In this document: piece after piece, positions 33,700 through 64,000 of the stretch
Layout of the letters: every line of letters begins with the position of its first letter
How positions within the stretch are numbered: the first letter of the stretch is position 1
NCBI RefSeq assembly: GCF_009914755.1
Contig: NC_060930.1
Length of the DNA: 64,000 bases
Source of the DNA: the human T2T-CHM13v2.0 reference genome, Homo sapiens
Direction: 5' to 3' (one strand)
The notes under the pieces: generated by a model
The model's database searches: none
The model's input: only the letters and a program-made list of their open reading frames with translations
What the model was told of the DNA's origin: nothing
Translations under genes and position numbers: made by a program

Positions 33700-35008
33700 C
33701 AGCTATAGCCAATGTGTCTGTCACCATGCTGCAGATTTGTTCATATTATCAAATTGCATAGAAACCATCACCACAATGTTTGAGACAATGGAACAAATGA
33801 AATAGAAAAGGTATCACTTTTAAATAATATATTAAGACTTACTGAATGTACTATCAAGTCAAGTGACATAGGGGAAATAGCAATTCAAAAGATTGTTAGT
33901 CAAAAACATTTATACTGTCGTATAAATGTAAGATATTAGTAGCAGCACTTAGCTAACAGTTCTAGATAGAATTCCTGTCGAGGAATCTTAACAGCATGTC
34001 ATCTGTTTTACAAAGAAGCATCAAAACAAACTACTGGTAATAAAACATTCAACTTGATGTATTTGTAATTGAAAAGAAAAAATGATGCTACGGAAGGCAC
34101 TGCATTAAGTCTTCACTGACAGTGTAGCTGCATCAGTAGAAAGGTGTCAAGGCTTTACATCAAGAGATCATTCCGAAAACCCCGAGCCAGTAATGTGTCA
34201 CTCCCTTCCATTCATATATTCCATATTCAATGATGCTATCAAAATGGTAAGTCAAATAAAATTCAAGCTGCTGGAGTCCTGCTTGTTTTCAGTTTTATAG
34301 AAAGAAATGCTATCAGAACACAAGATCATTGATGTTATGAAAAAAAGTACGATTTTATAGGCTCAAAGTATAAATGCAACTTTACAAAATTATGGTTCAA
34401 TATGATTCACTGGTGATGTTTAGATGGTGTCATAATCTGAACACTAAAGGCAGAACTGTTAAGACTAGTGGAATGTAGACATTACTTTAAAATATTTCAC
34501 AGAAGAATGAATGATTGGACACAAAATCCATACCCATTATCAAAAGATTTTCAACATTACATTTGAAAGTGAAAAAGAGAAAAGGCTGTTAGATTTTTTA
34601 AAATCTTCAAGTACAGTTTAAAGGAATAGAATTACTCAAATTCTGGTTAACAGCAGGAAAATAGTTCTACTGATTGCAGAAAAACTAGTGCATGCTTTTT
34701 TTGCCATTAGTTTCTCTGTGTTCATGGGAGGAAAATTTCTCATTATGGTGAAGAACAAGAATTGGATGATCTTTTTAAGTAACTGTATATAGCTACTTGA
34801 AGCATAACATTATAAAATTTTAATATTTATTGTATTCCATGATGAATTGATTTTATTTTCCTTATCACAAATATATATTGTAAAAAACACCTAATGAATA
34901 TTTTCATCTCCACATAGATACTTGCCAATCTCCTTAGTTTATCCTTGACTGTCATGTGATTTCACTGTCCAAATGCAACATGTCATGGAAAAGGTTTGAG
35001 AAACATTA
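33700..35008 (+). mobile_element. Decayed hAT/Charlie-like DNA transposon (transposase relic)
   Basis: Composition and motifs resemble a Charlie internal sequence, ending in gaaaaggtttgagaaacatt, a Charlie/MER5-type terminus. Family not certain. Confidence 0.5.
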
Positions 35009-35630
35009 GCATAGCTGATATTTTTGGCAGTTTCCCCTAGTTGGAAATCTTAACAGCAAGCAATAAACAAATAAATAAAATAAACATAAACATTATAAAT
35101 TGATTGAAGGATATACTTACCTCTAAAGTAACCTCTGAGATTGCATAAGACTAGTAAAATCTTTTAAAATACATTACGATACTTTAATAAACACTCAGTA
35201 TAGATTTACAAAATGTATATAATTTTCTATAGAAAATAGTTACAATATCTTCCTAATAAATGATTTTCTTATACCATAATCAGCCAGAGATTCTTTTTAA
35301 CCAAGCAACAATACAAAACACAAGTCAATAGTTCTCTTTTTAGGTGCAGAATTTAACTGATATATCTATCATTTTAATTTCATTATCATGTTTCTACTTC
35401 ATGAAAATGCTTCTAATATAAATCATTCAGTTACTATTAGGTAAGACACCAAGTATTTGAGAAAATATCAAATCTATATAATCAAAGAGAATTAGTCAAA
35501 AAACATTCAAGTAGAAAAATGAGTATAATTTATTACAAAGTCCTTCACAAATAAAATTATGCCCCAGTGAATGTAAGTATAATGTTCTTAAAATTTCAAA
35601 CCCTCCTTTAAAAACAGATTGAAGTCTTAC

Positions 35631-35785
35631 AGAAATATGTAGCCTTGGCAACCAAAGAAAAGCAGAAGTCAGAAGCCTGGAGAATTGATGAAGAAATTGG
35701 AATGTTTTTTCTTTGTCTCCCAACATTATCATGAACAGAGAAGATACAAACCAGTCATGGCCAGCATAATTCCCTTGCAGGCAGA
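35631..35785 (-). CDS. TBC1D32: TBC1D32 coding exon (4th from last), 155 nt, phase 1-0
   Basis: tttttcAG|TCTGCC...ATTTCT|GTaaga. Translates (L)[51 protein letters not shown]; overlaps track ORF 35496..35732. Confidence 0.93.
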
Positions 35786-36187
35786 CTGAAAAACACAGTT
35801 AAGAAAACTTTACAATATTTTGTAAGATAAAATATTAAAATTCTGTAAATAAAATAAAATGAATATATTAAATAAAAAGCAGACATTCTTATTCTGAATT
35901 TATGAAACTTAGTTTTTAAATATTCTTAGACATGTCTGAAAATACATTCTAATGTCTTTATTCAGTTTAAGATTCAATGAATGAGACTAAATATAATGAT
36001 TACAACTCAATTTAACAAAATTCATATTTAAAATACAGAATAAAATACTGTAAGAATATATCATAACAAATCACTAATATAGCTTAAAGTACTACTTTAC
36101 TATAAATGTGTCAAGGTATATCATCAAAGAATCATGAAAAATATGTGAAAAAAATTAAGCTATTGTGAATATACTCAAAAAGGATAT
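35786..36187 (-). other. U12-type (minor spliceosome) intron with AT-AG termini, 402 nt
   Basis: 5' splice site ATATCCTTT (36187-36179). U12 branch motif TTTTCTTAAC (35807-35798), with the branch A 13-14 nt from a terminal AG (35787-35786). The splice keeps the frame (C+TC = Leu). Confidence 0.9.
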
Positions 36188-36303
36188 GAAGAGAAGATTT
36201 TATGGAAGTTTGCTGCTGTTTCAGGAATCTCTCACAATGCTTTAAAACCCAGGTAAGATCATTTTCTGCACCATCTTTTAAGAGACTGAGGAATTTGCCA
36301 TAC
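36188..36303 (-). CDS. TBC1D32: TBC1D32 coding exon (5th from last), 116 nt, phase 2-1, ending at a U12-type AT donor
   Basis: taatatAG|GTATGG...TCTCTTC|ATATCCTTTT. Translates (R)[38 protein letters not shown](L). Confidence 0.9.
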
Positions 36304-36647
36304 CTATATTAAAAGCCCACAAAACATAAAACATATCAGGTCTTGCATTGAATGTTTTAAAATTACTTCTTTTAGCATAACTATGTTATACAGAGCACTT
36401 ATGAAAGATTAGCTCTCAATACATGTTTCTGATGATTATGATATATTTGGATTAACAGTATTCATCTGGCAAATACTGATAACTTTAAAGGAAGATGAAA
36501 CAGTAATGAGAGAACAACATGATGATATCCTGTAGATGAAACGTATAATATAAGCATTTTTTCCTGAACTTAATCTAAAACATGGAATGTTGACAGGTTA
36601 GTTTTACAAAATGTTGAGTCTAGAAGTACCTTTAGAGTTCAAACAGT

Positions 36648-37590
<943 letters not shown>

Positions 37591-38297
37591 ACAACATCAC
37601 AAAACATAATTAAGAGAATCATATGCCCTATGTGATACAGGCATGTAAGTTCAAATTATTAAAAAAATCACTTTCATCATGCTGTGAATTTATAAAAATA
37701 CCCAGCTTTTTAAACAAATCTTACACGTATCTTTTTAAAATTTGATTCTGAAGATGACCCTATAAGTAAAATGGGAATGTTAAAATCCCCATTTAATAAG
37801 CAAGAAAGGGAAGTTTCAAGGTTTCAGTCCTTAACTCTCTGTTCACTGTTTAGCTTACCTGTTTCTTTTCAAAATTACAACTTGAGTATTAAAAATTCAA
37901 ACTGCAATAAGTTTTTTAATTTTAACTTCTGCATCTGTCCTTCAGGTACTTTTGTACTCATCACCATGGAATTAATCATATTCTAGAAAATAGTATGACT
38001 GTGTTACCAACGTGCTGACTTTTACAATGTTATTTTTGTAAAAAACCTGGTAGTCATGAGGGCTTAAACACACTGTAATTGGCCTCTGGAATAACAATGA
38101 ACTGTAACTGATTTACCTAGAGAGGTAATTTAATCATGTGCCAATATCCTCAAAAACAAAGTCATTTTCCGAATGATAAACTCTGCATTTAAAGTATACA
38201 AAATAGTTGGTTGTTAAATTAAATACTACTGAGCACATATGAGGCAGATAAAACAAATTCTAGAAATGCACAAGGGAGCTATTTCCCTATAATATAC

Positions 38298-62327: not shown

Positions 62328-64000
62328 TGATTGGGGGGAATTAGTAATCCTAAATTTTAGATAATTCATCACACTTGCAAAGGCAATCCAGTCCAGTCAT
62401 TCGTTAAATAGGCAATTTTCATTATTTTATCAAAATGCAATTGCAATTACAGTCCATCTCATTCTCCCCTTTTCTCTCTTAAAAAGTTTATTTCCACATA
62501 CTATGCAGGTAATATTCCAATTTTAAATCTTTACTATTAGAATTGGAGAATGGATTGTCATCAATTTGTAAATGAAATGGCAATAATTCATCAGAGACAT
62601 GAACGGAGACTTAATTTCTGAAAAGGCAGAAAGTATCAGCAAGAATCAACACCAGTGAATAAGGATATATATCCAATAAGAACAAGAAAAATTGTTAAAC
62701 AAAATCAGTATAGATTAATGAAAACTATCTTGCTAAATTAAGGATATTGTTCTAGTGAAAAAAATAGACATTTGTAGTTAAGAAGGCTAAATTTCAACAT
62801 CTTTTAATGCAAAAAAAACCTTAATATCAGCATAAGGTGATAAAATATGTAGGCATCCTAAGATTATAATTATAAAACCCAAGAACTTTTTTACTCACTC
62901 ACTGAACGCTGCATAGCTCCAGAGACACAGAATATGGTATTCTTGTTCTTTGGCCCCATCTCTGATTTAGAAATGTTATCTATCATTAGTTTTGTTATTA
63001 ACCAAAATGCATTGCAACAATTTTCTAACTGTTCTATAAACAGTACTTTGCAGCTATAAAATATTCAAAATAAACTTTATATATAGTAATACCTACAAAA
63101 GGAATACCTTTTCCATTCCCCAAAATATTAATGCATTAACATTGCCAGGGGTTTGTATTTTCACTTGTCTACTTTTATAAAATGCCAAAACTATGCAAAT
63201 AATACAGATGCAATATAGTGGCTTAGCATCATGGTCTTTACCTAAGAGCATAATATGGTTTTCAAGGACATTTGACTCATACATAGAACCCAATGATTCA
63301 AGACATATTTTATACTGAATTCATTCAGAGCTGAAAATTTACAAATGATGAAAAACAAGTTCTAACTAGAATTCGCTTCTGTTTTATATAATATATACCT
63401 CCCCCCACCCTGATCTCATTTAATTTGTAGTAAAAAAAATTACATCAGGTTGGGGCAAAAAAAAAAAAAGATACTATAGAGGGATATTTATATTTTACAT
63501 ATTATTAACTTTAAAATGATCTGTTTTCTCATAGAGGAATAATATCATCTGAAACTATCTGGCTAAAAGTATTGGAATGATCTGACTGTAAAGATTTTAA
63601 TATTATTTGGTATATTACATTAAAAGGAATGATTATAACCATATAACTTACTCTTTTATATAGTATTTGAAAAAGAATATTTTACCAGGCAGAAAATCAA
63701 TTTCCTATCAGATAAGCAGAAATGTGATGGAGAAGGTAGTCAAGTAAGATACTGAAGCTATAAAAGACTAAATTTGAAGTAATCGCAGACTAAAAGGCTG
63801 TACATTTTTTAGTTATTTTTTTCAATTGTGAAAAAATAGGATGTAATGCTAACAATGCACACCTTTTATGTGCCATAAAAATGTAAAGTACCACTTGCTA
63901 AATGATGAAATAACTATAATAAAGGTGTCTACTTCATGAATAATATATATGGAAGTCTAACTCAAGAAGCTTTCTAACTGCAAACTTTTGCATACTCTAG

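What the first reader, a model, noticed from the sequence alone, without database searches (positions are those of the whole stretch)
35786..36187. Minor-spliceosome (U12) intron with rare AT-AG termini in TBC1D32
Seen: the exon at 36303-36188 ends at ...TCTTCTCTTC|ATATCCTTTTT, a perfect U12 5' splice-site consensus (RTATCCTTT) beginning with AT. The other end reads TTTTCTTAAC-tgtgtttttc-AG|, a U12 branch motif with its A 13-14 nt from an AG, and there is no AC between the branch motif and the exon. Joining AT to AG gives C+TC = Leu and an unbroken frame (KSSL-L-CLQGNY). Established: U12 introns are mostly GT-AG or AT-AC, and AT-AG is a rare subtype; TBC1D32 is a cilia/Hedgehog gene. Inference: this intron may be inefficiently spliced and rate-limiting, making TBC1D32 a candidate mediator of ciliopathy-like features in minor-spliceosome disorders. 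It may also be an intermediate between AT-AC and GT-AG. It may already be catalogued.
Basis: partly seen in the sequence, partly recalled or inferred. Interest (0 to 1): 0.8.

Follow-up and report, generated by a model that had tools for sequence, protein, structure and literature searches.

The report
Known U12 AT-AG intron in TBC1D32
Intron 28 of the human cilia gene TBC1D32 is a genuine minor-spliceosome (U12-type) intron with the uncommon AT-AG ends, but it is already listed in published minor-intron catalogues and its retention has already been measured in minor-spliceosome-deficient cells.

Summary
On the minus strand, the 402-nt intron 36187..35786 starts with ATATCCTTT and ends with TTTCTTAAC, 10 nt, then AG. 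The branch A lies 13-14 nt from the 3' end, and the join keeps the reading frame. Each motif alone occurs at chance frequency in the window. Their placement exactly at two annotated exon edges is not chance.

The intron is not new:
- MIDB (Olthof 2019 supplement) lists it, together with a mouse Tbc1d32 minor intron that also begins with AT.
- De Wolf 2021 supplements list it as a U12 A-type AT_AG intron. Retention rises in CENATAC-mutant patient cells (PSI 0.13 to 0.40, padj 0.007) and after CENATAC depletion in HeLa (0.19 to 0.76-0.82, low read counts).
- Khatri 2023 supplements place TBC1D32 in their cilium-related and ciliopathy tables of U12 genes. Retention in RNU4ATAC-patient fibroblasts changed by only 0.9 PSI points.

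The idea that AT-AG is an intermediate between AT-AC and GT-AG dates from 2006. Verdict: real, ordinary and already catalogued. No main text I searched discusses this intron individually.

The parts
36188..36303 (-). Upstream coding exon. It is exon 28 of 32, counted from the hub's table.
   Evidence: Hub annotation. It is in frame and ends ...TCTTCTCTTC.
36179..36187 (-). U12-type 5' splice site ATATCCTTT, intron positions +1 to +9.
   Evidence: It matches RTATCCTTT 9 of 9 (consensus). Published scores are 0.932 and 97.9.
35786..36187 (-). The U12-type A-type (AT-AG) intron: 402 nt, 20% G+C, phase 1.
   Evidence: It has the same length and flanking strings as the published hg38 entry chr6:121112660-121113061.
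36132..36134 (-). First in-frame stop codon (TGA) if the intron is retained, at intron nt 54-56.
   Evidence: Three exon junctions lie downstream, so nonsense-mediated decay is expected (inference). Published mRNA log2 fold changes of -2.39 and -2.25 after CENATAC depletion are consistent with this.
35798..35806 (-). U12 branch-point motif TTTCTTAAC. The likely branch A is 35799, with 35800 as the alternative.
   Evidence: It matches TTCCTTRAY 8 of 9. Published bp_seq is TTTCTTAAC with score 0.942. The distance to the 3' end is 13-14 nt, against a published optimum of 11-13.
35786..35788 (-). 3' splice site CAG.
   Evidence: A C before the AG is reported as typical of animal AT-AG minor introns.
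35631..35785 (-). Downstream coding exon (exon 29 of 32).
   Evidence: Hub annotation. It is in frame.

Best explanation
Intron 28 of TBC1D32 is a constitutive U12-type intron of the A-type (AT-AN) subclass, with AT-AG termini, removed by the minor spliceosome.

Mechanism, from established knowledge of this pathway. The U11/U12 di-snRNP recognises the ATATCCTTT donor and the TTTCTTAAC branch site together. The branch A lies about 13 nt from the 3' end. U4atac/U6atac.U5 then joins, and A-type introns depend especially on the tri-snRNP factor CENATAC. The terminal G in place of C is tolerated because the last base of AT-starting U12 introns is flexible.

Splicing appears somewhat inefficient. 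When the intron is retained, an in-frame TGA at intron nt 54 truncates the protein and should trigger nonsense-mediated decay.

Shown here: the sequence anatomy, the reading frame, and the stop codon on retention. Shown in published tables: the U12 scores, the response to CENATAC loss, and an AT-starting minor intron in mouse Tbc1d32. Inferred: which A is the branch point, the decay of retained transcripts, and all snRNP contacts.
For: Sequence:
- Donor 9 of 9 and branch motif 8 of 9 against the consensus. Branch A is 13-14 nt from the AG. The junction is unique and in frame.

Catalogues:
- MIDB lists human chr6:121112660-121113061 (402 nt, minus strand) and mouse Tbc1d32 chr10:56049018-56049761, with MIG status 'Both'. 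The mouse 5'SS is TCC|ATATCCTTT and the mouse BPS is AGTTCCTTAACC.
- De Wolf 2021 lists it in the 'U12 A-type' sheet as AT_AG.

Function, from published tables:
- CENATAC-mutant MVA lymphoblasts: PSI 0.126 to 0.400, log2FC 2.19, padj 6.9e-3.
- HeLa CENATAC depletion: PSI 0.189 (control), 0.761 (24 h), 0.818 (48 h); p 1.1e-8 and 2.4e-10; mRNA log2FC -2.39 and -2.25.
[quoted passage not shown] None of 85 major AT-AC-like introns responded.
- ZRSR2-mutant MDS: PSI 0 to 0.072, nominal p 0.039.
Against: - The HeLa values have no adjusted p-value and rest on a mean of 9 spanning and 24 intron reads. The intron is therefore not in the paper's 24 h or 48 h significant sets, only in the 'MVA' set.
- I read the A-type row with the column header of the neighbouring G-type sheet. 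The 34 fields match, but I did not see the A-type header itself.
- The ZRSR2 data have a base mean of 2.6 reads and no adjusted p.
- RNU4ATAC (TALS) fibroblasts show PSI 0 in 5 of 5 controls and 0, 2.1, 0, 1.0 and 1.3 in 5 patients, a dPSI of 0.9. Loss of U4atac function gave almost no measurable retention in that low-expressing cell type. I assigned that row to the TALS sheet by its column count and position, not by seeing the sheet boundary.
- The branch motif has one mismatch to the consensus.
- No junction reads were examined here.
Confidence: 0.95

Rival explanations
1. The +1 A of the donor is edited A-to-I in the pre-mRNA. The spliceosome would then see a GT-AG U12 intron, and the AT-AG termini would exist only at the DNA level.
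For: Parada 2014 reports A>G mismatches at the donor of two U12-like AT-AG introns, NUP210 and CRYZL1.
Against: - 0 of 14 inverted-repeat pairs found within 34800-37600 cover the donor.
- The 200 nt around the donor fold worse than shuffled sequence: z = +2.5, and 199 of 200 shuffles fold at least as well. The donor is unpaired in the centroid structure. There is therefore no sign of the duplex that ADAR needs.
- The intron behaves like an A-type intron on CENATAC loss.
- No reads were inspected here, so this rival is not excluded.
Confidence: 0.03
2. It is a major-spliceosome (U2-type) intron with non-canonical AT-AG ends.
For: - The 3' end TGTGTTTTTCAG looks like an acceptable, if short, U2-type acceptor.
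- U2-type AT-AC introns exist (passages).
Against: - The donor TTC|ATATCC shares almost nothing with the U2-type donor pattern, as I recall that pattern. It is a perfect U12 donor.
- Two published scorings class the intron as minor.
- None of 85 major AT-AC-like introns responded to CENATAC depletion, whereas this one did.
Confidence: 0.01
3. The annotated junction is an alignment or annotation artefact, and the real intron uses nearby GT and AG sites.
For: Non-canonical introns are a known source of misannotation.
Against: - Within 60 nt of the donor there are three GTs. The only one inside the intron is TGA|GTATAT at 36174, which would add 13 nt and break the frame with the annotated acceptor.
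- Only the annotated join was tested, and it gives an open frame.
- The bases flanking both ends differ, so the junction cannot slide.
- Published data report intron-spanning reads for exactly these coordinates.
Confidence: 0.01

Closest known systems
Human U12-type AT-AG introns conserved as AT-AG in mouse: NUP210, USP21, RAPGEFL1 and INPP5B (Sheth 2006, Table 3)
   Same: They have an AT-starting U12 donor, a U12 branch motif close to the 3' end, and a terminal AG. USP21, INPP5B and RAPGEFL1 sit in the same 'U12 A-type' table as TBC1D32. RAPGEFL1 has the identical branch string TTTCTTAAC.
   Different: TBC1D32 is not among the eight human AT-AG genes of Sheth's Table 3. For TBC1D32 I could confirm only the AT start in mouse, not the 3' dinucleotide.
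Canonical U12 AT-AC introns, for example ATG9A (de Wolf 2021 table)
   Same: ATG9A has the same donor core ATATCCTTT, the identical branch string TTTCTTAAC and the same branch score of 0.942. Both are retained in CENATAC-mutant cells.
   Different: The last base is C in ATG9A and G in TBC1D32.
Subtype-switching U12 introns: XPO4, ACTR10 and SCN10A, which are AT-AG in human and GT-AG in mouse (Sheth 2006; Parada 2014)
   Same: They have AT-AG termini and have been discussed as possible intermediates between AT-AC and GT-AG.
   Different: In those genes the mouse donor is GT. In Tbc1d32 the mouse donor is also AT. Any change in TBC1D32 would therefore be at the 3' end, if there was a change at all.

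Membership tests
U12-type (minor-spliceosome) intron | 5' splice site matching RTATCCTTT from intron position +1 | tested here: met
   ATATCCTTT at 36187..36179, 9 of 9 (consensus).
U12-type (minor-spliceosome) intron | Branch-point motif matching TTCCTTRAY | tested here: met
   TTTCTTAAC at 35806..35798, 8 of 9. Published branch scores are 0.942 and 88.8.
U12-type (minor-spliceosome) intron | Short distance from branch A to the 3' splice site (optimum 11-13 nt) | tested here: met
   13 nt from A35799 or 14 nt from A35800 to G35786. The optimum is quoted.
U12-type (minor-spliceosome) intron | No distinct polypyrimidine tract upstream of the 3' splice site | tested here: inconclusive
   The 10 nt between the motif and the AG (TGTGTTTTTC) include a 6-nt pyrimidine run (TTTTTC). 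The space is too short to judge.
U12-type (minor-spliceosome) intron | Splicing depends on minor-spliceosome components | not testable with these tools
   Published tables only. There is a clear response to CENATAC loss, a nominal response to ZRSR2 mutation and a dPSI of 0.9 in RNU4ATAC fibroblasts.
U12-type (minor-spliceosome) intron | Intron position and class conserved in orthologues | tested here: inconclusive
   MIDB lists a minor intron in mouse Tbc1d32 with an ATATCCTTT donor and a TTCCTTAAC branch motif. Bocquet 2023 states that Xenopus tbc1d32 has the same exon/intron structure.
A-type (AT-AN) minor intron, AT-AG subtype | Terminal dinucleotides AT and AG, with a unique junction placement | tested here: met
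   Listed as AT_AG / AT-AG.
A-to-I edited AT-AG splice site | Donor embedded in a double-stranded RNA that ADAR can edit | tested here: not met
   0 of 14 inverted-repeat pairs cover the donor. The local fold has z = +2.5. Editing itself could not be tested.
U2-type AT-AC-like intron | Donor resembling the U2-type pattern, and splicing independent of minor-spliceosome factors | tested here: not met
   The donor is a perfect U12 motif. Published retention rises on CENATAC loss, while 0 of 85 major AT-AC-like introns responded.

The most novel reading that the evidence does not exclude
TBC1D32 may be one of the transcripts most sensitive to loss of A-type minor splicing. In HeLa cells depleted of CENATAC, retention rose from 0.19 to about 0.8 and mRNA fell about five-fold. 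TBC1D32 variants cause retinitis pigmentosa. Loss of TBC1D32 through retention of this AT-AG intron could therefore contribute to the mild maculopathy of CENATAC-mutant patients. It could also contribute to the retinal abnormalities reported in RNU4ATAC syndromes. In my searches, no paper holds both 'TBC1D32' and 'minor intron' in its main text. The papers found do not concern this intron, judging by title and abstract.
Probability: 0.08. Interest if true: 0.5.

Novelty: already known. Interest (0 to 1): 0.12.

Why it matters
The finding adds little. The intron, its class, its AT-AG termini, its scores and its behaviour in three minor-spliceosome-deficient settings are already in published supplementary tables. 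The gene is also already in published tables of cilium-related and ciliopathy U12 genes.

What remains open is narrow. First, whether the terminal G is ancestral or a lineage-specific change from C. Second, whether the strong CENATAC dependence has consequences for TBC1D32 dosage in retina or other ciliated tissues.

Tried and rejected
- An Rfam scan of 35000-37000 at E up to 1 found no RNA family on either strand.
- Only one ORF of 40 aa or more overlaps the intron (43 aa, 35755..35886, minus strand). It crosses the acceptor and I take it for chance.
- There is no tandem repeat inside the intron. The one weak row lies at 36321-36335, outside it.
- The A-to-I editing rival found no structural support.
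- A count of 'AT_AG' cells in the de Wolf files (51 in file 1, 41 in file 2) mixes minor and major sheets. I did not use it as the number of U12 AT-AG introns. The only clean figure I saw is 11 human U12 AT-AG introns in Sheth 2006.
- The supplements of Olthof 2020 (disease-linked minor-intron genes) hold no TBC1D32 entry in 4 files.
- Bocquet 2023 has 0 occurrences of 'splice', 'intron 28', 'exon 28', 'exon 29' or 'non-canonical'.
- Vertebrate orthologue alignment was not possible. None of the sequence collections on hand holds vertebrate genomes.
bioRxiv supplements are closed, so tables of the Larue/Roy preprint and the 2026 zebrafish preprint that might bear on conservation or on tbc1d32 in zebrafish were not seen.

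Full report
**1. What is in the sequence**

Read on the minus strand, the annotated exon 36303..36188 ends ...TCTTCTCTTC and is followed at once by ATATCCTTTTTGAG. The intron runs to ...GTTTTCTTAACTGTGTTTTTCAG, and the next exon (35785..35631) starts TCTGCC.

Joining the eight annotated coding parts of the window gives a single open frame that ends at the annotated stop. The intron is 402 nt, 20% G+C and phase 1. The other 6 of the 7 introns in the window are GT-AG.

The bases on either side of both ends differ, so the junction cannot be slid to other dinucleotides.

Between the branch motif and the exon there is no AC other than the motif's own last two bases. The next AC ends at 35754, inside the exon.

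By the hub's table, this is intron 28 of the 32-exon transcript.

**2. Is it more than chance?**

The motifs taken alone are not unusual in this AT-rich window:
- ATATCCTTT: 3 matches against 1.78 expected.
- RTATCCTT: 12 against 7.47.
- TTCTTAAC: 4 against 5.07.

What is unusual is the register. Only 1 of the 12 RTATCCTT matches begins at the first base after an annotated exon. The same intron carries the branch motif with its A 13-14 nt from the acceptor. From the background rates, I estimate about 3e-9 for both in register at one given intron. This figure is my arithmetic, not a tool result.

**3. What it is**

The donor matches the U12 consensus RTATCCTTT 9 of 9. The branch motif matches TTCCTTRAY 8 of 9 (consensus strings from the U12DB paper). 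The branch-to-3'-end distance lies at the edge of the published optimum of 11-13 nt. The C before the terminal AG fits what a pan-eukaryotic survey reports for animal AT-AG minor introns.

Nothing else is in the interval:
- No Rfam family on either strand.
- No tandem repeat inside the intron.
- One 43-aa ORF that I take for chance.

**4. It is already catalogued and already measured**

Three papers carry this exact intron (hg38 chr6:121112660-121113061, minus strand, 402 nt) in supplementary tables.

(a) Olthof 2019 (MIDB), supplements only. It lists the human intron and a mouse Tbc1d32 minor intron, with MIG status 'Both'. Human 5'SS and BPS scores are 97.9 and 88.8. Mouse scores are 94.5 and 87.6. 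The mouse donor also starts with AT, and the mouse branch motif is TTCCTTAAC.

(b) De Wolf 2021 (abstract, passages and supplements). It lists the intron under 'U12 A-type' as AT_AG, with donor score 0.932, branch score 0.942 and flanking strings identical to the window. The measurements are:
- Lymphoblasts of CENATAC-mutant patients: retention rises from PSI 0.126 to 0.400, padj 6.9e-3. The intron is one of three A-type introns in the 'MVA only' group of Dataset EV4.
- HeLa after CENATAC depletion: PSI goes 0.189 to 0.761 (24 h) and 0.818 (48 h), with nominal p of 1.1e-8 and 2.4e-10 and mRNA log2 changes of -2.39 and -2.25. No adjusted p is given and read counts are low, at 9 spanning and 24 intron reads. 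I read that row using the header of the neighbouring G-type sheet.
- ZRSR2-mutant MDS samples: PSI goes 0 to 0.072, p 0.039, base mean 2.6.

(c) Khatri 2023 (abstract, passages and supplements).
- TBC1D32 is listed as a U12 gene under 'non-motile cilium assembly' and 'cilium assembly'. It is flagged as a ciliopathy (OFDS) gene in the supplementary tables.
- The paper counts 86 cilium-related and 23 ciliopathy-related U12 genes.
- The TALS fibroblast table shows PSI 0 in all 5 controls and 0, 2.1, 0, 1.0 and 1.3 in 5 patients, a dPSI of 0.9 (row, header).
- An expression row suggests very low expression there. I did not see that table's header.

**5. How it most likely works**

This is a constitutive minor-spliceosome intron of the A-type subclass.

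[quoted passage not shown] None of 85 major AT-AC-like introns responded. Affected introns had higher basal retention (medians 0.115-0.130) than unaffected ones (0.081). TBC1D32's basal values of 0.13-0.19 fit the 'less efficiently spliced' group.

If the intron is retained, the frame runs into a TGA at intron nt 54-56 (36134..36132). Three exon junctions lie downstream, so nonsense-mediated decay is expected. The fall in mRNA after CENATAC depletion is consistent with that, but does not prove it.

**6. Rivals**

- **A-to-I editing of the first A.** This is reported for two other U12-like AT-AG introns. It finds no structural support here. No inverted repeat covers the donor (0 of 14 pairs), and the local RNA folds worse than shuffled sequence (z = +2.5). 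It cannot be excluded without reads.
- **A U2-type reading.** The donor sequence and the CENATAC response contradict it.
- **A misplaced junction.** The frame contradicts it, as does the lack of an in-frame GT alternative. So do the published spanning reads.

**7.

- 'Inefficiently spliced' is partly borne out, on thin read counts.
- 'Candidate mediator of ciliopathy-like features' is already implicit in Khatri 2023's gene tables. The only RNU4ATAC data I saw do not favour it (dPSI 0.9). A 2026 preprint from the same group nominates TMEM107 and RFX7 (abstract only).
- 'Intermediate between AT-AC and GT-AG' is stated in Sheth 2006 (passages) and in the Turunen review (passages). In Sheth's table of human AT-AG U12 introns, TBC1D32 is not among the eight genes named. 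For TBC1D32 the mouse donor is also AT, so any change would be at the last base. I could not read the mouse 3' end or any other vertebrate.

**8. What is not in print, as far as my searches reach**

- No paper in the searched library holds both 'TBC1D32' and 'minor intron' in its main text.
- 'TBC1D32' with 'U12' gives 5 papers, none about this intron by title or abstract (listing only).
- 'C6orf170' with 'U12' gives 1 unrelated preprint (listing only).
- The main TBC1D32 retinal-disease paper does not mention splicing of this intron.

The intron therefore appears only in supplementary tables. Nobody seems to have singled it out.

**9. Verdict**

The feature is a known member of a known class. 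Interest is low.

The boldest reading still open is that this intron makes TBC1D32 dosage unusually dependent on CENATAC and A-type splicing, with consequences in the retina. The patients' mild maculopathy and TBC1D32's role in retinitis pigmentosa are what suggest it. I give it under 10%.

Noticed in passing
window 62661-62784, minus strand: Two ATATCCTT copies (62747..62740 and 62668..62661) and one TTCTTAAC (62784..62777) lie within 125 nt. They are downstream of an alternative-transcript exon (62961..62899). The branch-like motif comes before the donor-like motifs, and none sits at an annotated exon edge. I take this for chance in AT-rich sequence.
   Followed up: partly
window 35774, minus strand: An AG lies 12 nt inside exon 29 (CCTGCAAG|GGA), 25 nt from the branch A. 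It would give an in-frame 12-nt deletion if used as a cryptic acceptor. It is not annotated, and the de Wolf tables report no alternative splicing event for this intron.
   Followed up: no
window 35786-36187: The intron length (402 nt) is a multiple of three, so retention does not shift the frame. Retention still truncates the protein, because an in-frame TGA lies at intron nt 54-56.
   Followed up: yes
window 35107-35114, minus strand: Another ATATCCTT lies about 520 nt into the next (GT-AG) intron. It is part of a weak inverted repeat (I4) and is not at an exon edge.
   Followed up: no
window 36088-36287, minus strand: The RNA around the U12 donor is predicted to be less structured than shuffled sequence of the same dinucleotide content (z = +2.5). 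This would leave the donor accessible.
   Followed up: partly
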